Below are positions 4,001 through 59,294 of a stretch of 64,000 nt of DNA, piece after piece (position 1 is the stretch's first letter; the number at the start of each line of letters is the position of its first letter). The DNA lies in IMG/VR virus record IMGVR_UViG_3300044723_007969; one strand, written 5' to 3'. The translations under genes were made by a program, and so were the position numbers. This DNA comes from a virus. Taxonomy: Duplodnaviria; Caudoviricetes. The notes under the pieces were generated by a model. The model ran no database searches, had not been told where the DNA came from, and saw only the letters and a list, made by a program, of their open reading frames with translations.

Positions 4001-5059
4001 ATGATCAAAAAATATATAAAAGTAGACAAGGGGTCTTATCGTAATCAAGACATGAGCGGTAGGATATTCCCGATCCTCAAAGATTACCAAAGGTTCGAAG
4101 GCAAGGAAGGTGGATTCATCACCGTGGATTGCTCAGAGCTGGATGGCTTTGAGGGACTGAACAAGGCTCGTATAAATGTGCCTGCCATAACGGATCTGAC
4201 ACTGACCACTGAAGGTGCATTTCAGATCAGCAGGGACGAGTTAGAAAACGAGACAGAAACGGTCACAGCCACAGAAGGTGCGGAGACGGATGAGCAGGCG
4301 ATAGAGCGGATCGCGGCCAGATTCTCTATACTGGATGAGATGGCAGAAGCGGTATCCACATCCAAGGTCAGAGCGATGATAGTGTCAGGACCTCCGGGCA
4401 TAGGTAAATCTTACGGTGTTGAACGGGCACTGGAGAAGCGATCCATGTTCGATGACATAGCAGGCTCGCAACGGAAGTTCGAAGTTGTCAAGGGTGCCAT
4501 GAGTGCCATAGGCCTATACAAGAAGCTCTACGAACACAGTACGAAGGGTCATGTGGTCTGCTTCGATGACTGTGATGCCATACTGTATGATGACTTGGCT
4601 TTGAATCTATTGAAGGCCGCATTGGACACGGGCAAGAAGAGAACCCTGTGTTGGAACACAGAATCTAGAACGCTGATGGCGGAGGGTATGCCCAATTCAT
4701 TCGAGTTCAATGGTGGGGTGGTGTTCATAACGAACATCAAGTTCGACAATGTGAAATCCAAGAAACTACAGGACCATCTACAGGCCCTACAGAGCAGATG
4801 CCATTATTTGGATTTGACCATCGATTCAATGCGAGATCGTATGCTTCGTATCAGACAGATATGTGGACAGGGAATGTTGGAGAAGTACCAGATGCCCCAT
4901 GCGACACAGGAAGAGCTGATCCAATTCATATTCGATAACAAGCACAAGTTGAGAGAGATCAGTCTGAGAATGGTGCTGAAGATAGCAGACCTCTGGAAGA
5001 TGAAGCCCGAGGGCTACCAGGATCTCGCCAGAAGCACCTGTATGAGGCCTGGAGCCTAG
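4001..5059 (+). CDS. AAA+ family ATPase
   Basis: Walker A GPPGIGKS, Walker B VVCFDDCD, sensor-1 FITN, Arg-finger ALQSR. Confidence 0.9.
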   Translation: MIKKYIKVDKGSYRNQDMSGRIFPILKDYQRFEGKEGGFITVDCSELDGFEGLNKARINVPAITDLTLTTEGAFQISRDELENETETVTATEGAETDEQAIERIAARFSILDEMAEAVSTSKVRAMIVSGPPGIGKSYGVERALEKRSMFDDIAGSQRKFEVVKGAMSAIGLYKKLYEHSTKGHVVCFDDCDAILYDDLALNLLKAALDTGKKRTLCWNTESRTLMAEGMPNSFEFNGGVVFITNIKFDNVKSKKLQDHLQALQSRCHYLDLTIDSMRDRMLRIRQICGQGMLEKYQMPHATQEELIQFIFDNKHKLREISLRMVLKIADLWKMKPEGYQDLARSTCMRPGA

Positions 5060-6085: not shown

Positions 6086-6265
6086 ATGGGACATTTCTTA
6101 TTCATCCTACTACACATCATCGCGATCGTTTTCACGGGCTTCATATTCTTGATGGCAACGATCCCTTTGCACCTGATCTATTCGGCTGTGAAGGGGAACC
6201 GACCCCAGGCAGTCACGGTCAAGAAGAAAGCAAGACCAAAGGGTTTTGAGTTGGGCAGACTGTAA
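6086..6265 (+). CDS. 59-aa membrane protein
   Basis: Not in track; SD GGAGGA; hydrophobic N-terminal half and basic tail. Confidence 0.65.
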   Translation: MGHFLFILLHIIAIVFTGFIFLMATIPLHLIYSAVKGNRPQAVTVKKKARPKGFELGRL

Positions 6266-6301
6266 TCGAATTCTCCCACTAGACACTAATCAACACCACG
6301 G

Positions 6302-6331
6302 GGGCGGTACTAATCATATCGCCCTTTTTTT
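6302..6331 (+). terminator. intrinsic terminator ending the early + strand block
   Basis: GGGCGGT...ATCGCCC stem followed by T run. Confidence 0.7.
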
Positions 6332-6590
6332 GTGACCACTCGATCTGGTAATTGGTAAGGGTCAGAGTCGGCCCGCGCCTGGAAGGCGATGCGTCCGCAA
6401 AAATTTTCACGAGATGTTCGTGCTTGGTAATCCGGGCTTATGCCAACTAATCTTCTGCGAAGATTTGCGTAGCAGAATTTTTGACACCTAGCCCTACCCT
6501 ATACTAATTGTTCTATTGATCGCGGCTTACCCTAGATAGAGTTCTTATTGTACTCCTATTGATATGCTCTTATGGACGGCGCTTATACGA

Positions 6591-6785
6591 TTAAAAGAAT
6601 AATGAGTATAGGCCATATAGGGCTAATAGTATGACACCTATCCGGATGGCCGTACAGCCAGGACACTGACGCATCTGATCCATATGGTTCAGGAAGTGTA
6701 GACGGAATGTGGAATGGTCGTGCTTGTACTTGGCCACGTCGTGACCCAGATCGTTGAGCCGGGATTGTTCTCTTTCTGTGGGCAT
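6591..6785 (-). CDS. small protein with CxxC and C-terminal TM
   Basis: TAAATA box 5 nt before ATG 6785. Confidence 0.6.
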   Translation of the reverse strand: MPTEREQSRLNDLGHDVAKYKHDHSTFRLHFLNHMDQMRQCPGCTAIRIGVILLALYGLYSLFF

Positions 6786-7015
6786 ACGACTATTTAGATG
6801 TGGGCGGAACAGTAGGGTCTTAATGTGGTTTATGGGCATGGAGCATTTTCGCTATGCCTGCCATCCTTAGGATTTTTCGTTACCAAACTGACGCTTCGCT
6901 GTCGCTTATTGGGTCAAGCCTGTCGTATGGCCAGATCGTGGGGTGAGGGCACCATGGCCAGGATGGGGACACGAGCAGTCTGCCGCATTCGATCCTGCAG
7001 TCGGTCGGGGTGGCT

Positions 7016-7102
7016 TTACTTCTTTCGGAGGGTGTTCCTGAGGTATCGGGCCGAGCCAAGTAGGCCCACTATCACCACGAGGAATATCACTGTTGCGATC
7101 AT
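7016..7102 (-). CDS. 28-aa TM peptide (MIATVIFLVVIVGLLGSARYLRNTLRKK)
   Basis: TAAATA box (7111-7116, minus strand) upstream; TM plus basic tail. Confidence 0.5.
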   Translation of the reverse strand: MIATVIFLVVIVGLLGSARYLRNTLRKK

Positions 7103-7418
7103 TGTGTGTGTATTTAACTCCGCGGCTGGTAACACATGGTAATGTCTGCAGGCCCGCGGCATTCTGTACGCCGTTCTGGTTCTACCAATCCCTACCGGAT
7201 CTCACGCATGGGTGGCGTAATCCATTGGTGGTTTTGGTTTGGTGCCTGTGGCGATTACCATCGCTTACCACTCCGCACATGCCCAACCCTTGGTGGATTA
7301 GGTTTGGTCTACCATTCATTACCATGCCCCGGATCTGGGTCGGAACCTACCGTACAACTCCTTTACCAAACTCGACCTCCGCGACCAAGGGGACAGGGCA
7401 TTGATTTAAATAGTAGAT

Positions 7419-7541
7419 ATGAACAAGCCAGATGATTGGGACACTATATCCTTGTGGACACTGAGGGCAGTGGTGGCCATGGCAGTCGTAGTGATGTGGC
7501 TGGTGGTCACGGGCAGGATAGATCGTTGGCTGGGGTTATAA
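7419..7541 (+). CDS. 40-aa TM peptide (MNKPDDWDTISLWTLRAVVAMAVVV...)
   Basis: TAAATA 7407-7412, 6 nt before ATG. Confidence 0.55.
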   Translation: MNKPDDWDTISLWTLRAVVAMAVVVMWLVVTGRIDRWLGL

Positions 7542-7766
7542 CAGCATAGAATGGTCACACACCATCAGAAGTGGCACACACCATCAGGGTCGGTGTCGAA
7601 AAGATTTTCTGAAAAAGTTTTTCTTCGGTCGCATAGCCGTTAGTGAGCATGGTGGTAAAACTGGTAGGGCAATGATAAAATACCCCCTATATAAAAAAAA
7701 TAACAGCAGAAATTTTACCCTCGTATACCCAGGTCGACAGATCGTGTAACTGTGCTATAATGGCGT

Positions 7767-8084
7767 ATGTCACCTTTGAAGTGGATCCTGCTGGTAGCAT
7801 TCATTGTGAGTGCGTACTGGTTATGGGCCTTGTATCTGATCATAGCCATTATAGTGCTGGGTGCGTATTTCGACACAGGCAAGGGTGGCAGATCTAGACG
7901 CACGACGCACAAGCCATACAGGCCTTACCGATTCAAACGACCCAAACGCACAGTGTACAAAGCACCCAGATACAAGAGATCACGACCCGCCAACAAAGGC
8001 AGGCTCTTGAAGTCAGGTACGAGACAGCACTATCGTCATGGGCGTTGGTGGCCACCCGCACGGAAGGACAACACGCCTGACTAG
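7767..8084 (+). CDS. membrane protein with Arg/Lys-rich tail
   Basis: TCGACA-N16-TATAAT promoter 7734-7761 directly before ATG. Confidence 0.65.
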   Translation: MSPLKWILLVAFIVSAYWLWALYLIIAIIVLGAYFDTGKGGRSRRTTHKPYRPYRFKRPKRTVYKAPRYKRSRPANKGRLLKSGTRQHYRHGRWWPPARKDNTPD

Positions 8085-22522: not shown

Positions 22523-23965
22523 TTACTGTTCTTCATCTGAGTGCAGTTCGTTCAATAGTTGTCTCAGTTTACCGCCCTCCACTGTGGCCTTAACTTTAAC
22601 TCCCAGGGCATTACCTTTACGAGGGTCTGGAACCTCCAGCCTTGCATCAGTAGACGTATCACCACTGGTTACTTTGGATGTCTGCTTTAACGAGTCGTAA
22701 ATTTTATTTTTGCCCTGCTGGTTGTAACTCTGTGACTCGTCCTCATCCAGACTCCTGATTCTTAAACTATCTACGTCAAACTCCAAGTCCACTTTCTGTC
22801 CTACCCCAGAACTTGATCTGGTCTTCATAAACTGTATTTGATATCTTCCACGTTCTTTCATTGCCCTCGATGTGAATATACCTATGACATTGTCTGCTGT
22901 CTGTATCTTGGACAGTCCACCTGAGATGTGACTGTGATCAAACTCTATCTCTTCAACGCTGGCCCTGTTTAACTGTGATGCTGTTGCCAACACACACTGT
23001 TTCTCAACGACCAAGTTTCTCAGTTCCTCACTCACATACTTGTCTTTAATGAACAAGTCTGCCGGACTTATTCTTTTGCTCTTAGGCATCATGAGATCCA
23101 AGTAATCGATCAGTATGCAGTCTATATTCTTTTTGTTCTTGAGCTCTAGTTCTTTCAAATACGTCCTCACATCCAACACGTTGCTACCACTTGGTAAGTA
23201 TTTGATCTGTAAGTTACCTGACTTCTTCTTCAACATTTTCACTTTCATCTCAACGTTTTCTATTTCCGGGAACACTTTCTTGGTTGGAATGTTTGTCATC
23301 ATTGCATCCAATCTCATGGCAGTAAGTTGTTCACTCAACTCAAAAGATATGTAACAAACGTTCAGGCCAGCCTGTGCCCAGTTCACCGCAAGATTCTGCA
23401 AGAACAAACTCTTACCTGCGCCTGATCCACCTGCAAAGATGTTTAGTTCTCCTCGGTTAAATCCACCGAATAGTTTCTTGTCGAGATTCTGCCAGCCAGT
23501 GCTGACCTGTCCGTTGTTCGCCTTGAGTGCCTCTAGTCTTCCTTTCGGATCCTCAAAGTAGTCTGTACCTAGGTCTCGTGTTAATCCCACATTGACCGCT
23601 TCCTTGACCATGTCCTCAACAGGAGCATAGTCGCCCTTCTCCAGCAAGTCCGCTGATTGTAGTATTGCATGTTCAAGTGCCTTGTGCCTAGAAAATGTTT
23701 CGAATTCGTCTAGCAACCAATTGAAGTGACTTGGATCTAAATCCTTCGCTGTCTTTAATTTTATATCGTGCGATGCATTTACTATGTCAACTTCCGGCAT
23801 GACCTTGTACTCGTCCATGTAGTCTTTTACAAACTTGGCGATTGGTTGTAGTTTACGATCAAACGATTCCGGTTTGAATATGTTCTGTGCCCTAGCAAAT
23901 GATTCTGCATCCGCAAGAAGCATCTCTATATAAAGTTTCTGTACATCAAATGTGTATTCAGCCAT
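22523..23965 (-). CDS. replicative DnaB-like helicase (T4 gp41)
   Basis: GGSGAGKS, IDYLDLM, TASQLNR. Confidence 0.94.
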   Translation of the reverse strand: MAEYTFDVQKLYIEMLLADAESFARAQNIFKPESFDRKLQPIAKFVKDYMDEYKVMPEVDIVNASHDIKLKTAKDLDPSHFNWLLDEFETFSRHKALEHAILQSADLLEKGDYAPVEDMVKEAVNVGLTRDLGTDYFEDPKGRLEALKANNGQVSTGWQNLDKKLFGGFNRGELNIFAGGSGAGKSLFLQNLAVNWAQAGLNVCYISFELSEQLTAMRLDAMMTNIPTKKVFPEIENVEMKVKMLKKKSGNLQIKYLPSGSNVLDVRTYLKELELKNKKNIDCILIDYLDLMMPKSKRISPADLFIKDKYVSEELRNLVVEKQCVLATASQLNRASVEEIEFDHSHISGGLSKIQTADNVIGIFTSRAMKERGRYQIQFMKTRSSSGVGQKVDLEFDVDSLRIRSLDEDESQSYNQQGKNKIYDSLKQTSKVTSGDTSTDARLEVPDPRKGNALGVKVKATVEGGKLRQLLNELHSDEEQ

Positions 23966-28698: not shown

Positions 28699-29185
28699 AA
28701 TCTATCTGTTCGCATTGCCTTGAAATATCCTTAACAAAATAAGCACACATGGGTTTAGGACCGTTTCTCAACGGAACCGCCAGCATCTGTCCTGACTTTA
28801 TTTTTGGAAAGTACCATTTGACCTCTGTGTATATGTCCACAACATCTATGGGCATGAAGTCTGGTTTAGCACTGGATAATGGATTGAAAGTGAAAGCATC
28901 AAACCCCCTGTCGTTCAAACTTGTTATTGGTAGCACATGCATCTCTTGTTGCCCGGCCTCTCCGATCAGCATCTTCCAGTCCAAAGGCATTTTAATTTTA
29001 TACTTTCCAATTTCTAACACCGCCGCCGGCGCATTGAAACTTTCAAGAAATATTAATGGTATGTAGAAGAAGTCCGGTTCGTTTGGATCCGAATTGTCAA
29101 GCACAGCGAATCTCAAATCCTCGTCCACCCATTCGGGTATTTTTTCTAGTGTGTAAGTTCTATTGTCTAATGTAAGGATTTTCAT
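28682..29185 (-). CDS. hypothetical protein (possible degenerate Hint fold)
   Basis: ORF coupled to uvsW. Confidence 0.75.
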   Translation of the reverse strand: MKILTLDNRTYTLEKIPEWVDEDLRFAVLDNSDPNEPDFFYIPLIFLESFNAPAAVLEIGKYKIKMPLDWKMLIGEAGQQEMHVLPITSLNDRGFDAFTFNPLSSAKPDFMPIDVVDIYTEVKWYFPKIKSGQMLAVPLRNGPKPMCAYFVKDISRQCEQIDYGSVW

Positions 29186-30629
29186 AATCTATCTTCTCTA
29201 TATTATACGGGTAATTGGCCTCTTTGTAAAACTTTTTCCTTGCACCTAGGTGTCTTTTTGCAAATTTACATGAACTGGTAATATCCCAAATCTGCACGTT
29301 CTCTTTGTCTTCTGCTTTACGAATACCTCGTCCTATGCTCTGTATTACCCTTACGAAAGATTTCCCAGGTTCAATAAGAACAAGATTGAATATCCGAGGA
29401 ATATTAATTCCAACGGATGCGACGCCATATGTCGCAATAATGATTTTGTTTTGTGTTGTAGACACTTCATCGTAGTGTTCTTTCCTTTCTAAGTTTTTTG
29501 TCGACCCCGATATAAACACAGAGTCCTTTAACTTCTTATTGAGTATTTCACCCGCGGATATTCTGTCTACTAAAATTAACGTGTTTCCCGAAGTTGAAAT
29601 ATCTTTTATTGTGTTAGCCACCCAGGTCATCCTGGTACTATCCGTAGTTAGCCATTTCAGTTCTTCTGCATAGGTTTTGAACTGTGGGTGATCCTGTGTC
29701 TGTAAAACATTCACGTGACAGTTTGCAAGTACACCTTTGTCTTGCAATTCACTTGCCTGTATCCTGTTTGCAACTTCTCCTATGCTACATTTTAGGCCCA
29801 TGAATTCAAAGTCTGCTTTAGGAACAGTGCCTGTGAGACCCCAACGTATGCCACAGTGTGCAAATGGTCCTGTTAATAATCTTTTCAGTACATCTGCTTT
29901 TGCCATGTGTACTTCGTCTATGATGATTGTATTGATGCCTTTTATTGCTTCGAGGAAATCAGTGGTATGTTCGTCCTTGCTTTTCTTTTCTAACACGTTC
30001 AATGACTGCCATGTTGCTATTGTGTTGAACCTTCCTAGTTCTTTACGATCTCCGTAGTATACACCTGTGTCCAAGTTACAAGCAAGGAAATCTTCTTCAG
30101 TCTGTGTTACTAGACTCTTGTTTGGCACTATCGTCAGTGTACGTCCGTAAGGTTCGACCAATTGGCATAACGCCGCTGTAATTATAGTCTTACCTGCACC
30201 AGTGGCGATCTCTTGTATGCATTGTGGATTCTCTATGAATTTGTTTATTGTCTCTACTTGATAGTCCCTTAACTCTATAGGCTGTCCGGCACACGGGTGT
30301 GCCTCCGGCCAAGTTATGTTTGAAAGATAATTTTTATCAACTGCTTTAAATTCGAAATTATGTTGAGTTCTTTGATCCTCGAAGTCAACATACACCCCGC
30401 CCTCTTCTAGTATCGGCAGTATTTGATCCACCAGGTTCAGATATGTTGTACCACCTAGTCCAAAGAACGACACCTTGCCGTCCCACCTGCCTAGTTTCAC
30501 TGCTGGCAAATGTCTAGCATATGGTATCTCGTATTTGAATTTGTTAGATAATCTCTTACGCCATTCGAGAGATAGGTTCTCGAACTTCACATTTACTTCG
30601 TCTTTTATTACTAATTTACAACTGCTCAT
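29160..30629 (-). CDS. uvsW: SF2 DNA helicase UvsW
   Basis: LRDYQ, ATGAGKT, DEVH, LTGT, QSIGRGIR. Confidence 0.92.
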   Translation of the reverse strand: MSSCKLVIKDEVNVKFENLSLEWRKRLSNKFKYEIPYARHLPAVKLGRWDGKVSFFGLGGTTYLNLVDQILPILEEGGVYVDFEDQRTQHNFEFKAVDKNYLSNITWPEAHPCAGQPIELRDYQVETINKFIENPQCIQEIATGAGKTIITAALCQLVEPYGRTLTIVPNKSLVTQTEEDFLACNLDTGVYYGDRKELGRFNTIATWQSLNVLEKKSKDEHTTDFLEAIKGINTIIIDEVHMAKADVLKRLLTGPFAHCGIRWGLTGTVPKADFEFMGLKCSIGEVANRIQASELQDKGVLANCHVNVLQTQDHPQFKTYAEELKWLTTDSTRMTWVANTIKDISTSGNTLILVDRISAGEILNKKLKDSVFISGSTKNLERKEHYDEVSTTQNKIIIATYGVASVGINIPRIFNLVLIEPGKSFVRVIQSIGRGIRKAEDKENVQIWDITSSCKFAKRHLGARKKFYKEANYPYNIEKIDYENPYIRQ

Positions 30630-49290: not shown

Positions 49291-50883
49291 TTAACCTGTG
49301 AACGATCCAAATATGGGCATTGGGGTTATCTCACTTGTCCTGTCAGTCCATTTTTCGAATATTTTAGGGTCAAAATCTGCTAGAACTTTCATCATACGTG
49401 TCATAAGCAAACAAGAACTTACTAGGTCGTCGTGCTGTCCTGGCTTGGCCTTATATGATAATCCTGACGCAACAAAGTCTTTGAGTTCTGATATCAATAA
49501 CTGCGAGTGGATTTTCATTTTATCATTCTCCACAAGCTCTTTGAATTTTGTACATGCATCAATTTTGTGTTTTGCAGTTGTATTGAATCCTCTCCTAAAT
49601 TTACGTCTGTGGCCTTTTCTAATTGGTTCTGATAAAAACATACCTTGTATATTTTCTTCTCCTATGTCCATAACTCTCATGAGTGCGGCTTCTCCTATGG
49701 AATTATTTTCCATTGAATAGAATATTTGTGGAGTTGCTGTTGAGTCTTTCTCCATGATTGTGTCATGTATATGTTTGTTGATACCTTGCAGTATTCTCAC
49801 TTGTTGGTTCATTGGTGTTTGATTGTGTTGCCATTCGCCCACTTGTTCGAAAGTGGGCAGTTCGAAAACCTGTATTGCGGCAAAGTCTCCACCTGTACCC
49901 ATGCTAGGATCCAGTGATACCATGTATGTGTGTCCCGGTGTTGGCCTTTTGAACCAACGCACCTGACCTGTTGTTTCCAACGGAGGAATGCCTTCCATGT
50001 CTGCAAGTACTAAACTTGATATAAGGGTCTCGTCAAAGATCAAGAATTCACACTCGTGTTCCCTTCTGAATCTTTCTTCACCTATTCTGGCCTTCTCTGC
50101 TTCCGCCCACGTTTCGTCTCTGTCTGGGTGTTCTGACCAGTGTGCTTTCATGGCATAAAAACCGTTAGTGCCTACTAGTTTGTCATTGCCATACTCATCA
50201 AATCGTTTGTTGGCCTCTTTCCAGATCAATGCGAACTGATCTTCGTCACTGTTTGGTGTTGAAGTAATCAGGCATTTACCTCCAGTTGATAGTGTTGGAG
50301 ATAGTGAAGTCCAAAATTCTTTGGCTTTTTCTGGTGGTTGCACGAACGCAAACTCATCGCAATATATTAATGTAAGTGACATACCCCTACCTGTGTTCTC
50401 TGTGGTTGTGGTTGCCATTATCTTTGATCCGTTGTCGAATTCTATCGAGTTCCTGTTGTATTGTGTAACCCCTGCCTTTATCCAACTAGGCAACATCTCG
50501 TAGGCATAACGCACCCTTGACATGATGTCAGATGCTCCTGCGTATTTGTGTGCCGCGATTAGTATCTGTGAATCTGGTCTGAACATGGCATACCATATAA
50601 GGTATCCCGAAGCACAGGTAGTTTTTCCTGTCTGCCTTGGTAACATCGATATGCTGAATCTATGATCGTTGTAGGCCTCTACTAATCTTTCTTGATATGG
50701 AAATGGTTGAAAACTCATCTCACCTTTTGTTGGATGTTGTATCTTCATGAAAGTTTTCATAAAGAACAGAGGACCAGTTTTTGTGTCCATACACTTCTCA
50801 AGTTGTTCAACTTGTTCTTTCGTGTATTTGTGTTTCTTGTGCGCCTTTTTAATTTGGTCGCTATCTAATGATACATACGCCAT
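49291..50883 (-). CDS. terminase large subunit (T4 gp17)
   Basis: PRQTGKT, YCDEFAF, TSTPN, LDPSMG, HDDLV. Confidence 0.95.
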   Translation of the reverse strand: MAYVSLDSDQIKKAHKKHKYTKEQVEQLEKCMDTKTGPLFFMKTFMKIQHPTKGEMSFQPFPYQERLVEAYNDHRFSISMLPRQTGKTTCASGYLIWYAMFRPDSQILIAAHKYAGASDIMSRVRYAYEMLPSWIKAGVTQYNRNSIEFDNGSKIMATTTTENTGRGMSLTLIYCDEFAFVQPPEKAKEFWTSLSPTLSTGGKCLITSTPNSDEDQFALIWKEANKRFDEYGNDKLVGTNGFYAMKAHWSEHPDRDETWAEAEKARIGEERFRREHECEFLIFDETLISSLVLADMEGIPPLETTGQVRWFKRPTPGHTYMVSLDPSMGTGGDFAAIQVFELPTFEQVGEWQHNQTPMNQQVRILQGINKHIHDTIMEKDSTATPQIFYSMENNSIGEAALMRVMDIGEENIQGMFLSEPIRKGHRRKFRRGFNTTAKHKIDACTKFKELVENDKMKIHSQLLISELKDFVASGLSYKAKPGQHDDLVSSCLLMTRMMKVLADFDPKIFEKWTDRTSEITPMPIFGSFTG

Positions 50884-55883: not shown

Positions 55884-58800
55884 TTAGTTCCCTAATTTTG
55901 CAATTTCTCCTGTGTTTTTGATTCTTAATGGTATGTAAATGAACTCAACTGATTTGATTGGTTCAATTGCTATATCCACATACAATTCGTTTCTGTCAAT
56001 CCTTGTAGGTGTGTTGTTTGTGTCATCACATACTACTAGGAAATCATATAACGCTCTTTGTCCAACAAGTTCTAACATGAAAGACTCGATCGCACCCTTG
56101 ATCTCATTCCTTGTTAGTTCATCATTTGGTTCAAATATGAACGGTTTAGCAATGGCATCCAGTTGTGATCTTAGATACACTGCTAGTCTAGAAACGTTTA
56201 TTCTGTCTAACGCCGAACTTGCTGATGTCTTAGTTAAGTTACCGAAGTTAACAATACCTGCTCCTGAGAAGAACGTGATTGGGTTTACTTTAACTTCATG
56301 CATAGAATCTCTCACTGACTCCGTAACAGATATTGTCTGGAACTCTCCTGACGCTGTGTCAATGTAACCAACTGCTGTTGCGTTGTCAACGATACCTCTT
56401 CTTGTTCCTGATGGTGCGAACCATGGGAAAGCGATGTTATCATTGTTTGCCAGTGTTCTCATCATCATGTGTGATGGTGGAACGACAATCGTTTTACCTG
56501 TGTTGTCAGTTGTTGATCCTGATGGATAAAACACACCCAAGTAATCACTTGCACTTACAAGTCCGTCTTCACCGTTGTCCAGTGCCGCCGCCGAGTTGTT
56601 AGCCCAATCCTGTATCTTAGTTGATGTGCCCTCTAATCTCATTGGGGTGTCACCTACTATAAATGCAGTGTTGTTTCTGTCTGTGTTTAAGTTAATCATG
56701 TTTGAAATCAACTCTGGATAACCAGGTGTGGCAATAACATTGTAGCCTCTTTGGTCTTCTCTGATTGCTTGGTTGGTGTCGATCTCTGATTTCAGTTGTT
56801 CAACAATCACTTTTCTCTGTGCTTTTCTACCGAATGTACCGGACCCGTCAGCGTTGTTGCTTGATTTAGTCACCCATCTGTCTGGGAAGTATGTAGCAAC
56901 AGATTCATTGTTTGATGTTCTGATGTTACCTAAGCCTGCTGATCCTGAACCAGGATATTTCGTAGTTGTGATGTAGTTGTTTTTGTATTCTTTAACATTG
57001 TAACCAGATCTTCTTGTGTTCCAAAGCATTATACCTTGTGGGTATAGGTCTGGGTTAGGAGCATCTGGGTCTAGGAAGCCATCGCTCAATAAACTTTTAA
57101 TTGTGCTGAATGTTCCTGCACCGCCTGTTGACAATGAATCTGCCTTGTCGGCCGCTGTGTGTAATCTAGCATCAGCAAAAACAATACCGTCTTCTGTTGT
57201 TTGGTCTGATTTGTCAACTAGTTCCCACGCCGCGCCTGTCGTAGTTACTGCTACTTGGTTCGCTGTGTTTGTAGAACTCAAAGTTGCTGATGTGTTATAT
57301 TTGTAAAGTTTTGGATAGTTTTCTAAGTCACTAGTGTCAATCCATAAGTCGTTAGTTACAAGTGCAGTACCATCTGACTGTGTAGTCGGTGCTGTTGCAC
57401 TGAATTGTGGACCTTCTGGATCTGTGCTTGAGTATGCTGTTGCGTATCCAACCCAAGTTGTACCATTGTGTGCCATGATGTCTGCTTCGTCTGTAGAAGT
57501 GTCATACCATAATGTTCCATCTGCTGGCTCATTAGTTGGTGCACTTGTTGAAGCAGTGTAACTTAATCTTTTCCAGTTACTTGCTATGATACCTGTGTTA
57601 GCACTTGAGTCAATGCTGTCACCTGTTGGTATGTCATACAAGTTGTCAAGTAATGTTGCACTGTTGTTTGTGAATGTTCCATAAGCGTGAGCAGTTGTTT
57701 GACTGAATCCTGCATCTGCTAATGGTGTTCCTGATGTGTCAACCATCCTGAATTCACCACCTAGTTTGTGTGTCATAACAATCGCACCTGCAGTTGTCTT
57801 ACTTGCTGAAACGTTTGTTAATGCCGCACCGTTCACTGCCGCAATAAAGGCATCAGCATCAGTACCACCTAGCGTTACTGTTACTGCTGTACTCAATGCT
57901 TCTTGGTTCTTCACTGATTCCTGTATTGAGAAAGTTTCTGAACTTGTGAAAGTTGGGGAAGTAACGTTACTAGTAATTGTAGTAGCACCACCTTCATATC
58001 TGAACAGTTGGAAGTCACCAACGTTTGGAGTAGCATCTGTGGCATCTGCCGCTGTCATTGACTCTTCAGTTATGTTGTATTGTGCGTATATTGTTCCAAC
58101 TGTTAAACTTGAACCACCGTTTGCCGCATCTAGGTTGAAAATCGCTGATGTATGGTTGGCGTATAATGGACTAGCAACTGTTGAGAAACTAGCGTTTGAT
58201 GAACTGTAAATCTTAGTAACAAGACTTGCTCCTGAGTTTGCAGAAGTTGTCTTGAACCAAACTGAACCGTTAGGTCTGTTCTCGTCTGCAGTCTTCCAAG
58301 TTGGTCTGTTTGTGTGTTTGTCCTGTAAGAATTGAACACCGTTTAACACAGTGTTTGAAGTTATTCCTAAGTCCGCTACTAATGTTCCATTTCCTTCTTC
58401 AAATCTTATTGTGTTAGTACCACCTGTTGAGTCGCCTAGTGCCTTACCGTTGTGGAAGATTTCTAAGTTACCTGTTGTAGCATTTACACTTGCAGTAACG
58501 TTGGTTACATTTGAACCAATCGCCGCCGCAACGTTTGCCAGTGTTGTACCACTTGTTGTCACGGTAGTACCGTTGATATCCATTGTGTGGCCACTTGTCA
58601 CTGTTGTTCCTGAAGCAACCGTCACCACTGGGAGTGATGTGTTCCATGCTTCTGATCCAACCTGTACCCAAGTGTTACTTGCAGTTTTTTTGTAGATCTT
58701 GTTTGAAACGTGTGTTGTGTTGATTGCGTAATCACCAATTACACCGATTGAAGTTTTTGGTGCACCAGTTGAGACACCGCCAACTAGGTCACTTGTTGAA

Positions 58801-59294
58801 GTGATAAGTGTTGGAGTAACTGTTGTGAATGCTTGATTAGTCTTTGACCATTCAAATAAACCAAAACTGCTTGTTGCAAGGTCAAACCAGTATGTTCCAT
58901 CTGTTGGTGCCGCTGTCGGTGCCGAAGCACTTCCAATTAAACCGTTTGTGTCAACGTTAGCTCTTAGCACATATGCTCTGTTGGCAACTCCTAAGAAACT
59001 GTACGCCGCTTGTAGACCCCATTCATTTAATTCATAACCGTGTAATGAATTTCCTGATGCGTCTGTGTAGAATTTTGGATCTCCAAAAGTCTCTGTTAAT
59101 TCTCTTTGAGAAGAAATCAAATATGCAGTGTTGGCATTTGATGTCTGTGTTCCAGACGCTGTGCCGTCACCTGCTCCGTTCTTCTTATCTTGTGCTGATG
59201 CTACTATGAATAGTGGTGTCGTACCCGCATCTGATGGTACATAGAAACTTTCGTTTATTACACTAACTTCTACTCCTGGTGATGTTAAAGCCAT
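55884..59294 (-). CDS. tail sheath protein (T4 gp18), 1136 aa
   Basis: LTSPGVEV, PWFAPSG..RG, DRINVSRL, FEPND, CDDTNNTP, PIKSVEFI. Confidence 0.95.
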   Translation of the reverse strand: MALTSPGVEVSVINESFYVPSDAGTTPLFIVASAQDKKNGAGDGTASGTQTSNANTAYLISSQRELTETFGDPKFYTDASGNSLHGYELNEWGLQAAYSFLGVANRAYVLRANVDTNGLIGSASAPTAAPTDGTYWFDLATSSFGLFEWSKTNQAFTTVTPTLITSTSDLVGGVSTGAPKTSIGVIGDYAINTTHVSNKIYKKTASNTWVQVGSEAWNTSLPVVTVASGTTVTSGHTMDINGTTVTTSGTTLANVAAAIGSNVTNVTASVNATTGNLEIFHNGKALGDSTGGTNTIRFEEGNGTLVADLGITSNTVLNGVQFLQDKHTNRPTWKTADENRPNGSVWFKTTSANSGASLVTKIYSSSNASFSTVASPLYANHTSAIFNLDAANGGSSLTVGTIYAQYNITEESMTAADATDATPNVGDFQLFRYEGGATTITSNVTSPTFTSSETFSIQESVKNQEALSTAVTVTLGGTDADAFIAAVNGAALTNVSASKTTAGAIVMTHKLGGEFRMVDTSGTPLADAGFSQTTAHAYGTFTNNSATLLDNLYDIPTGDSIDSSANTGIIASNWKRLSYTASTSAPTNEPADGTLWYDTSTDEADIMAHNGTTWVGYATAYSSTDPEGPQFSATAPTTQSDGTALVTNDLWIDTSDLENYPKLYKYNTSATLSSTNTANQVAVTTTGAAWELVDKSDQTTEDGIVFADARLHTAADKADSLSTGGAGTFSTIKSLLSDGFLDPDAPNPDLYPQGIMLWNTRRSGYNVKEYKNNYITTTKYPGSGSAGLGNIRTSNNESVATYFPDRWVTKSSNNADGSGTFGRKAQRKVIVEQLKSEIDTNQAIREDQRGYNVIATPGYPELISNMINLNTDRNNTAFIVGDTPMRLEGTSTKIQDWANNSAAALDNGEDGLVSASDYLGVFYPSGSTTDNTGKTIVVPPSHMMMRTLANNDNIAFPWFAPSGTRRGIVDNATAVGYIDTASGEFQTISVTESVRDSMHEVKVNPITFFSGAGIVNFGNLTKTSASSALDRINVSRLAVYLRSQLDAIAKPFIFEPNDELTRNEIKGAIESFMLELVGQRALYDFLVVCDDTNNTPTRIDRNELYVDIAIEPIKSVEFIYIPLRIKNTGEIAKLGN

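What the first reader, a model, noticed from the sequence alone, without database searches (positions are those of the whole stretch)
6300..7720. Gene-poor 1.4-kb interval with 11 TGGTAA/TTACCA sites: candidate origin or control hub
Exact copies lie at 6346, 6353, 6425, 6880, 7127, 7137, 7255, 7265, 7319, 7363 and 7653, with CTACCA variants at 7182 and 7309. Under one copy is expected by chance (about 2x1300/4096). Two pairs are 10 nt apart (7127/7137 and 7255/7265), and orientation flips between those pairs. The interval also has A/T tracts (7598-7622, 7690-7704), a 13-nt direct repeat CACACACCATCAG x2 (about 7556-7587) and only tiny ORFs, and it follows the terminator of the early block. This looks like iterons for an initiator, or a packaging/nucleoid-organising site.
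Basis: partly seen in the sequence, partly recalled or inferred. Interest (0 to 1): 0.7.

Follow-up and report, generated by a model that had tools for sequence, protein, structure and literature searches.

The report
Phased TGGTAA protein-binding array in phage
A non-coding stretch of an uncultured marine T4-like jumbo phage carries TGGTAA hexamers set in pairs exactly one DNA turn apart, conserved in at least 87 sequence variants, which marks a docking platform for an unknown DNA-binding protein whose role (gene control or replication start) is still open.

Summary
All 11 TGGTAA/TTACCA copies lie where stated, against 1.2 expected, and it is the most enriched hexamer in the interval.

The core is 7127-7378: one forward pair and four reverse pairs, each two hexamers 10 nt apart. 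In 87 distinct marine and estuarine variants:
- spacing within a pair is 10 nt in 382 of 398 cases;
- pair-to-pair distances cluster at 54, 62-65 and 73 nt;
- hexamer columns are 88% invariant against 44-47% for spacers and linkers.

The spacers of opposed pairs do not pair with each other, and indels are not multiples of three. So this is a DNA-level protein-binding array, not an RNA hairpin or a coding region.

The origin reading fails several tests: no AT-rich unwinding segment, no DnaA boxes and no initiator gene. The packaging reading has no support.

The array lies between outward-facing TAAATA boxes of tiny membrane-protein genes. The same hexamer at the same 10-nt period forms bacterial MraZ operators, but the phage sites lack the operator's 5' G, and no MraZ gene was found.

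My best reading, at about 0.4, is an operator or architectural control hub. A replication origin remains the main rival, at about 0.25.

The parts
6300..6335 (+). Intrinsic terminator of the upstream 59-aa membrane-protein gene (6086-6265)
   Evidence: 10-bp stem followed by a T-run; sequence
6346..6430 (+). Three forward TGGTAA sites (6346, 6353, 6425) inside a conserved non-coding block
   Evidence: TGGTAAtTGGTAA is conserved in L112, L002 and L003; TTGGTAAT at 6424 is invariant in six relatives
6340..6500 (+). Conserved non-coding block with two small hairpins that show compensatory changes (stems 6376-6388 and 6449-6465) and the invariant word TTTTTGACACCT (6478-6489). It may be a structured RNA or a promoter region.
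   Evidence: 6 of 32 predicted pairs have double changes, from only 4 sequences; no Rfam match
6591..6785 (-). Conserved tiny gene (64 aa, starts MPTERE, C-terminal membrane helix), with a TAAATA box 5 nt before its ATG (6791-6796)
   Evidence: homologues in 51 loci; for the TAAATA geometry
6827..6900 (.). Very highly conserved non-coding block upstream of the tiny gene. It holds the palindrome ATCCTTAGGAT (6863-6873) and the TTACCA site at 6880.
   Evidence: In L004 the hexamer at this position is inverted to TGGTAA.
7016..7102 (-). 28-aa hydrophobic ORF, with a TAAATA box (7111-7116 on the + strand as TATTTA) 8 nt before its ATG and 10 nt from the first hexamer
   Evidence: sequence; similar ORFs in L108 and L003; the TATTTA box is present in 40 of 87 variants
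7127..7142 (+). Pair A: TGGTAA-N4-TGGTAA, the only forward pair, flanked outward by CCGCGG
   Evidence: present in all 79 distinct segments that could be scored
7182..7197 (-). Pair B: CTACCA-N4-CTACCG
7222..7308 (+). Two copies of the linker word TTGGTGG..T..GGTTTGGT (7222-7243 and 7287-7308), each abutting a reverse pair
   Evidence: D2; an identical 20-mer occurs in L008 beside a pair of opposite orientation
7255..7270 (-). Pair C: TTACCA-N4-TTACCA
7309..7324 (-). Pair D: CTACCA-N4-TTACCA (deleted in L108)
7363..7378 (-). Pair E: TTACCA plus a decayed second unit. Both units are intact in L112, L108 and most variants. It is flanked outward by CCGCGA.
7408..7541 (+). TAAATA box plus a 40-aa hydrophobic ORF, specific to this window (absent in L112 and L108)
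7556..7587 (+). CACACACCATCAG x2 with a 19-nt period; ACACCATCAG is conserved in relatives
   Evidence: (D5)
7590..7735 (+). Widely conserved 'right block'. It contains TGGTAAaacTGGTAG (7653-7667) followed 8 nt later by ATAAAATACCCCC..AAAAAAAA (7674-7701). It is also present in relatives that lack the array.
7734..7761 (+). Sigma-70-like promoter TCGACA-16-TATAAT with a TG extension, placed just before the 105-aa membrane-protein gene (7767-8084)

Best explanation
The core of the finding (7127-7378) is a DNA-level array of binding sites for an oligomeric, sequence-specific DNA-binding protein. Five pairs of TGGTA(A/G) hexamers have units exactly one helical turn apart, and the pairs are spaced about 5, 6 or 7 turns apart, so all sites lie on roughly one face of the helix. 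I infer that a protein binds cooperatively, head to tail, within each pair. I also infer that it bridges or wraps the roughly 250-bp segment and so controls the outward-facing promoters at its two edges. These are TAAATA-type boxes that drive tiny membrane-protein genes leftward and rightward. Similar hexamer pairs sit just upstream of another TAAATA-like box in the conserved right block (7653-7682). What is shown: the sites exist, are phased, are conserved as hexamers while spacers drift, are non-coding, do not act as a hairpin, occur at one locus per contig, and are common in marine phage populations. What is inferred: that a protein binds them, that it regulates transcription rather than starting replication, and its identity, which is unknown and could be phage- or host-encoded.
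For: In 87 distinct variants from 95 metagenome contigs plus the window, L112 and L108 (98 oriented loci), spacing within a pair is 10 nt in 382 of 398 cases and pair-to-pair distances fall at 54 (71 cases), 62-65 (73) and 73 nt (52). The linker from pair A to the first reverse pair comes in two alleles that differ by exactly 10 nt. Hexamer columns are 42/48 invariant, against 7/16 for spacers and 80/172 for other columns (Fisher p = 1e-7). The spacers of opposed pairs are not complementary, and indels of 10 and 44 nt rule out coding. More distant relatives keep 2-4-unit arrays at 10-nt period even where the DNA no longer aligns (L004, L008, L006, L001). Each contig has a single array locus. 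Position: pair A lies 9-10 nt from a TAAATA box in 40 of 87 variants. In this phage TAAATA is followed by an ATG 3-10 nt downstream in 20 of 44 occurrences, against 8-20% for control hexamers. The outer pairs face outward with the same CCGCG flank. Known systems work this way: MraZ boxes have a 10-nt period and are bound cooperatively by a ring oligomer (PMC12957436), and Apl/Cox/Xis bind direct repeats one turn apart over promoters (10.1101/784983).
Against: No candidate binding protein was found. The window and about 360 kb of relatives' contigs contain no MraZ, AbrB, OmpR-type or integrase gene. The neighbouring genes encode membrane or secreted peptides. In 47 of 87 variants there is no TAAATA box beside pair A. 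The three inner pairs have no promoter nearby. Hexamer orientation relative to the adjacent TAAATA-like box differs between the left edge and the right block. Promoter assignments rest on sequence patterns only.
Confidence: 0.4

Rival explanations
1. The array is an iteron-type replication origin. A phage initiator binds the phased hexamers and opens nearby DNA, or it stabilises a transcript from a flanking promoter as an R-loop primer, as at T4 origins.
For: The array is a unique non-coding locus of phased repeats. T4 oriE also carries evenly spaced direct repeats that are conserved in relatives, and T4 origins lie at promoters and points of divergent transcription (PMC3016281). The relative L004 has an AT-rich gene-free stretch of about 450 nt after its arrays. 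Unrelated phage contigs show TGGTA[AG] clusters in inverted orientation around AT-rich DNA beside primase-helicase genes, but those were found by searching for this very hexamer, so the support is weak.
Against: The array is GC 50-57% in a roughly 40% GC phage, and the nearest lower-GC segments only reach the genome average. There are no DnaA boxes. No initiator gene is adjacent, and the AAA+ neighbour folds like MoxR/RFC-type ATPases. Relatives with the same helicase and primase lack the array (L030, L009, L125). The replication module lies 15 kb away. The cumulative GC skew turns near 21 kb, not here.
Confidence: 0.25
2. The sites mimic host MraZ boxes. The phage recruits or soaks up the host cell-division regulator MraZ, either to time its own accessory genes or to disturb control of the host division operon.
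For: The triple TGGTAA-N4 array occurs in more than 120 bacterial genomes, mostly Bacteroidota. In 88 of 120 fetched loci it sits just upstream of a gene with the MraZ signature D.KGR. One such gene was confirmed as MraZ followed by MraW. MraZ boxes have a 10-nt period and are bound cooperatively by an 8-12-mer ring that tolerates longer spacers (PMC12957436). Shine-Dalgarno use in the window is low (21 of 63 genes), as in hosts that do not rely on it.
Against: The defining box is GTG(G/T). The base before TGGTAA is G in 97% of bacterial units but in only 16% of 763 phage units, where T is 50%. Phage spacers are G/C-rich where bacterial ones are A/T-rich. The phage has pairs, not triplets. The host is unknown. 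Sigma-70-like promoters and strong Shine-Dalgarno sites on several genes argue against a Bacteroidota host.
Confidence: 0.1
3. The array is a packaging (pac) site or lies at a physical genome end, with the hexamer clusters bound by the small terminase subunit.
For: Contigs of relatives end near the array from both sides: L001-L003, L005, L007 and L008 from the left, and L117, L120, L121, L123 and L125-L128 from the right. From memory, not checked here, the P1 pac site uses clustered hexamers.
Against: The contig break points scatter over about 1 kb. Of 98 metagenome contigs, 28 end 25-200 nt left of pair A, inside a segment with large indels between strains. Two contigs from one sample leave a gap of about 455 nt to the left of the arrays. 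Four contigs and the window read straight through. The large terminase gene is at 49291-50883, 42 kb away. No related record is classed as having terminal repeats.
Confidence: 0.05
4. The array is a structured RNA or DNA hairpin, with TGGTAA arms pairing with TTACCA arms.
For: Arms 7127-7153 and 7244-7270 are 74% complementary (I2). Fold z-scores are -1.8 on the + strand and -2.7 on the - strand.
Against: Only the hexamers pair. The 4-nt spacers are not complementary in the window or in the variants. L004 and L008 carry arrays in one orientation only. No Rfam family matches.
Confidence: 0.03

Closest known systems
MraZ operators of bacterial division (dcw/mra) operons
   Same: They are tandem direct repeats with a 10-nt period. 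In Bacteroidota and several other phyla the unit contains the same hexamer, TGGTAA. They are bound cooperatively by a ring-forming oligomer, one subunit per box (PMC12957436).
   Different: The bacterial unit is G-TGGTAA-A/T-rich, occurs three times, and sits directly before mraZ. The phage unit has T or A before the hexamer, G/C-rich spacers, pairs spread over about 250 bp in both orientations, and no mraZ gene.
Apl/Cox/Xis-type operator arrays of temperate phages (186, P2, lambda)
   Same: They are direct repeats one helical turn apart, bound head to tail with high cooperativity and DNA bending, and they lie between or over early promoters (10.1101/784983).
   Different: Those proteins accompany an integrase and an att site. 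No integrase was found in the relatives, and this phage looks like a T4-type lytic phage.
Iterons of T4 oriE
   Same: They form a cluster of evenly spaced direct repeats in a T4-type phage, conserved in close relatives and near promoters. Their function is likewise unproven (PMC3016281).
   Different: The T4 repeats are 12 nt long and lie in a different genome region beside repEA/repEB. Here the repeats are hexamer pairs at 10 nt, in both orientations, in a region of accessory genes.
OmpR/CpxR-type response-regulator boxes (from memory, not checked here)
   Same: They are tandem half-sites with a 10-11 bp period that share a TTAC/GTAA core. They control envelope genes, and the genes flanking the array encode membrane peptides.
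   Different: No such regulator gene was found. The exact consensus differs.

Membership tests
Iteron-type replication origin | Cluster of repeated initiator-binding sites in non-coding DNA | tested here: met
Iteron-type replication origin | Adjacent AT-rich DNA-unwinding element | tested here: not met
   the array is GC 50-57%; the nearest lower-GC segments are 35-40%, which is the genome average
Iteron-type replication origin | Initiator gene adjacent to or overlapping the repeats | tested here: not met
   the neighbours are a MoxR/RFC-like AAA+ ATPase and small membrane or secreted proteins
Iteron-type replication origin | Replication starts there | not testable with these tools
   Needs marker-frequency or nascent-strand mapping
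MraZ operator | Direct repeats with a 10-nt period (4-nt box plus 6-nt spacer) | tested here: met
   382 of 398 at 10 nt; PMC12957436 for the definition
MraZ operator | Box core GTG(G/T) | tested here: not met
   the base before TGG is G in 16% of 763 phage units, against 97% of 264 bacterial units
MraZ operator | Three or four contiguous boxes at the promoter of mraZ | tested here: not met
   The phage has pairs only, and no mraZ gene in the window or relatives
Apl/Cox/Xis operator array | Direct repeats one helix turn apart | tested here: met
Apl/Cox/Xis operator array | Partner integrase and att site | tested here: not met
   no PF00589 match in 362 kb of relatives' contigs; none seen in the window ORFs that were scanned
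pac site / genome terminus | Defined DNA ends or a coverage step at the site | tested here: inconclusive
   Contig ends cluster nearby but scatter over about 1 kb in a hypervariable segment. No read data are available.
pac site / genome terminus | Located in or beside the terminase genes | tested here: not met
   the large terminase gene is at 49291-50883
Structured RNA | Compensatory changes between paired arms | tested here: not met
   the spacers of opposed pairs are not complementary; no Rfam match

The most novel reading that the evidence does not exclude
A lytic marine jumbo phage carries eight to ten look-alikes of the host's MraZ boxes on one face of a 250-bp segment. It uses them to capture the host's cell-division master regulator. 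This would either tie expression of phage membrane peptides to the host's division state or drain MraZ from the host division operon.
Probability: 0.1. Interest if true: 0.8.

Novelty: new variant of a known kind. Interest (0 to 1): 0.55.

Why it matters
Cis-acting control DNA is almost unmapped in uncultured marine jumbo phages. This element is real and abundant, with at least 87 variants in coastal metagenomes, and it has a precise grammar: a hexamer, a 10-nt period and linkers of whole helical turns. That gives a ready-made bait for finding its binding protein. If it proves to be an origin, it would be the first sequence-defined one in this phage group. If it proves to be an operator, it would define a regulator of a cassette of tiny membrane proteins. 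Its likeness to MraZ boxes also raises a testable link to host cell-division control. In practical terms, the hypervariable segment beside it is a recurrent assembly break point for these phages.

Tried and rejected
- **Chance cluster:** rejected.
- **Coding sequence:** rejected. The ORFs over the array (7093-7404 and 7136-7435) are broken by 10- and 44-nt indels in relatives, and the 'protein' clusters found there are artefacts of conserved DNA.
- **Hairpin or RNA:** rejected, because the spacers do not pair and there is no Rfam match.
- **DnaA-dependent origin:** rejected. The interval has no DnaA box with one mismatch or fewer.
- **The AAA+ neighbour as initiator:** not supported. The sequence shows only weak RFC-like matches. 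The fold is closest to MoxR-type NorQ/CbbQ and to generic AAA+ ATPases. It is the homologue of a conserved T4-region ORF that is widely mis-annotated as 'thioredoxin'.
- **attP with arm-type sites:** no integrase found.
- **Phage-encoded OmpR-type, MraZ or AbrB regulator:** none found.
- **Fixed genome terminus:** not supported.
- **Analogous arrays with another motif in relatives whose ATPase is about 50% identical to the window's:** none found.
- **Host identification:** attempts through the porin gene and the DctP-like gene gave only phage or unnamed hits.
- **Nucleotide search of isolate phage genomes:** no match. An exact 26-mer from the array is not in IMG/VR.
- **Shared neighbour genes among unrelated array-bearing contigs:** primase-helicase and DNA methylase genes turned up. 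None has a relative beside the array; the single blastp hit to the window was its helicase at 29160-30629 (about 25% identity). That set was also selected by the hexamer itself.

Full report
**What the window is.** The window comes from an uncultured T4-type jumbo myovirus. It encodes a large terminase (49291-50883), a 1,136-aa tail sheath (55884-59294), a DnaB-like helicase (22523-23965) and a DnaG-like primase. Its closest isolates are PA5oct-like phages, and only at the protein level. No isolate genome matches at the DNA level, and no whole genome is held for the window. The first 21 kb or so are 45-54% GC, against about 40% for the rest.

**The observation.**
- Measured against the rest of the window, the interval holds 11 copies where 1.24 are expected (Poisson p = 8e-8). 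TGGTAA is the most enriched of 2,063 hexamers there, and this is the densest 1.4-kb window in the 64 kb.
- The paired form TGGTAR-N4-TGGTAR occurs three times in the window, all inside the interval, against 0.03 expected.
- The terminator at 6300-6326, the 13-nt repeat at 7556-7587 and the A/T tracts are also real.

**Anatomy of the array.**
- The core is 7127-7378. It holds one forward pair (7127/7137) and four reverse pairs (7182/7192, 7255/7265, 7309/7319 and 7363/7373). The second unit of the last pair has decayed in this window but is intact in relatives.
- Two spanning relatives from IMG/VR, L112 and L108, align across the whole interval.
- In that alignment, hexamer columns are invariant in 42 of 48 cases. 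The 4-nt spacers are invariant in 7 of 16 and the remaining columns in 80 of 172 (Fisher p = 1e-7).
- A metagenome scan with a pattern taken from pair A returned 95 marine and estuarine contigs, far above the roughly 10-20 I estimated by chance. Together with the window, L112 and L108, these gave 98 oriented loci and 87 distinct variants.
- In those variants, spacing within a pair is 10 nt in 382 of 398 cases. There are three or four reverse pairs per element. Pair-to-pair distances fall into three classes: 54 nt (71 cases), 62-65 nt (73) and 73 nt (52). These are close to 5, 6 and 7 helical turns.
- The linker between pair A and the first reverse pair exists in two alleles that differ by exactly 10 nt.
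- The unit consensus from 763 units is tTGGTA(A/g)nGnt.
- The outer pairs face outward and both are followed by CCGCG.
- More distant relatives (L004, L008, L006, L001) no longer align at the DNA level. They still carry 2-4-unit arrays at exactly 10-nt period near the same AAA+ gene, sometimes all in one orientation.
- At single positions the hexamer or pair is inverted in place while the flanks stay the same: window 6880 against L004, and window 7309 against L008 and L117.
- Each contig has one array locus.

**What the array is not.**
- It is not coding. Relatives differ by 10- and 44-nt indels inside the ORFs that overlap it, and a 10-nt repeat cannot keep a reading frame.
- It is not a hairpin or a structured RNA. 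The apparent long stem (I2) pairs only through the hexamers. The spacers of opposed pairs are not complementary in the window or in the variants. Some relatives have one orientation only. Rfam finds nothing.
- It is therefore a DNA-level array of protein-binding sites placed on one face of the helix.

**Surroundings.**
- The interval is gene-poor but not empty. Two tiny minus-strand genes are conserved. One is a 64-aa protein starting MPTERE with a C-terminal membrane helix (6591-6785, homologues in 51 loci). The other is a 28-aa hydrophobic peptide (7016-7102).
- Both genes, the window-specific 40-aa ORF at 7419 and many structural genes have a TAAATA box 3-10 nt before the ATG. This holds for 20 of 44 TAAATA occurrences, against 8-20% for control hexamers.
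- I read this as a T4-late-type promoter that gives nearly leaderless mRNAs. That is an inference from sequence pattern only.
- Pair A lies 9-10 nt from such a box in 40 of 87 variants.
- The right block has TGGTAA-aac-TGGTAG followed 8 nt later by a TAAATA-like box.
- The neighbouring genes encode secreted or membrane peptides, and none looks DNA-binding.

**Testing the origin reading.**
- The array is 50-57% GC, and the nearest lower-GC segments only reach the genome average.
- There are no DnaA boxes.
- The adjacent AAA+ gene (4001-5059) is always near the array, but its model (pLDDT 82) is closest to MoxR-type NorQ/CbbQ and to generic AAA+ ATPases, including RFC. It is not specifically close to initiators.
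- That gene is the homologue of a conserved T4-region ORF.
- Relatives that share the helicase and primase lack the array and any analogous phased repeat.
- These results lower the origin reading but do not exclude it. T4 origins are themselves heterogeneous, and the T4 oriE iterons are equally unexplained (PMC3016281).

**Testing the packaging or terminus reading.**
- Contigs of relatives do tend to stop near the array from both sides.
- The larger data set explains why. Of 98 contigs, 28 end 25-200 nt to the left of pair A. That lies inside a segment with large strain-to-strain indels.
- Two contigs from one sample leave a gap of about 455 nt to the left of the arrays.
- This is an assembly break caused by microdiversity, not a fixed end. 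The terminase gene is 42 kb away.

**An unexpected parallel.**
- In 88 of the fetched loci the array lies just upstream of a gene with the MraZ signature. In Maribacter that gene is confirmed as MraZ followed by MraW.
- The literature defines MraZ boxes as GTG(G/T) plus six spacer bases, three or four in tandem, bound cooperatively by a ring oligomer (PMC12957436).
- The phage sites share the hexamer, the period and the tandem arrangement. They lack the 5' G, which is present in 16% of phage units against 97% of bacterial units. They also have G/C-rich spacers and come as dispersed pairs.
- No MraZ or AbrB gene was found in the window, in the fetched phage loci or in 362 kb of relatives' contigs.
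- The array therefore fails membership as an MraZ operator, but it probably works in a similar way.
- The same binding logic is known for Apl/Cox/Xis arrays that sit over phage promoters (10.1101/784983).
- The host remains unknown.

**Verdict.**
This is a real, widespread, helically phased protein-binding array.
- Its function is unresolved. I favour an operator or architectural control hub for the flanking tiny-gene promoters (about 0.4).
- The rivals are a replication origin (about 0.25), recruitment or titration of host MraZ (about 0.1) and a packaging site (about 0.05).
- It is a new variant of a known kind of element.

Noticed in passing
window, genome-wide (e.g. 49290, 50896, 52419, 52952, 55169, 6796): TAAATA is followed by the ATG of a real ORF 3-10 nt downstream in 20 of 44 occurrences, with a peak at 5-7 nt. 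Only 21 of 63 genes have a Shine-Dalgarno-like motif. This suggests late-type promoters that give nearly leaderless mRNAs, and a host that does not depend on Shine-Dalgarno pairing.
   Followed up: partly
window 6340-6500: A conserved non-coding block has two small hairpins that keep pairing through double changes in relatives, plus the invariant word TTTTTGACACCT. In L002 and L003 it directly follows two tRNA genes. It may be a small stable RNA.
   Followed up: partly
window 6827-6900: A roughly 70-nt block upstream of the MPTERE gene is more conserved than the coding DNA around it. It contains the perfect 5-1-5 palindrome ATCCTTAGGAT, which looks like a separate operator for a dimeric protein.
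   Followed up: no
window 6950-7100 and equivalents in 98 metagenome contigs: A hypervariable segment with large indels lies just left of the array and is a recurrent assembly break point. Many contigs from both directions stop within 1 kb of the array.
   Followed up: yes
window 7590-7735; L004, L006, L009, L117, L120-L128: The 'right block', which ends in ATAAAATACCCCC..AAAAAAAA and then TATACCCAGG, is conserved across a wider set of phages than the array, including ones where it directly follows the AAA+ gene. Its function is unknown.
   Followed up: partly
L342-L461 (bacterial genomes): In many Bacteroidota and some other phyla the mraZ operator is three exact G-TGGTAA-A/T-rich units at 10-nt period, placed 60-110 nt before mraZ and followed in Flavobacteriaceae by a TAnnTTTG-type box.
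   Followed up: partly
L219, L208, L198, L187, L234, L210, L228, L245, L229, L137, L132, L176: Unrelated viral contigs carry inverted clusters of TGGTA[AG] at 8-10 nt period around AT-rich DNA. In several they lie between a primase-helicase (VapE-like) gene and a SNF2 helicase gene. These look like origins, but they were found by searching for this hexamer.
   Followed up: partly
window 1-21000 versus 21000-64000: The left third of the window is 45-54% GC against about 40% for the rest. It holds accessory genes (FkbM and class I methyltransferases, a DctP-like protein, ClpP, a radical SAM enzyme and a porin), and their content varies between relatives.
   Followed up: no
window 7499-7506: One exact copy of GCTGGTGG, the E. 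coli Chi sequence, lies inside the window-specific 40-aa ORF. It is probably chance.
   Followed up: no
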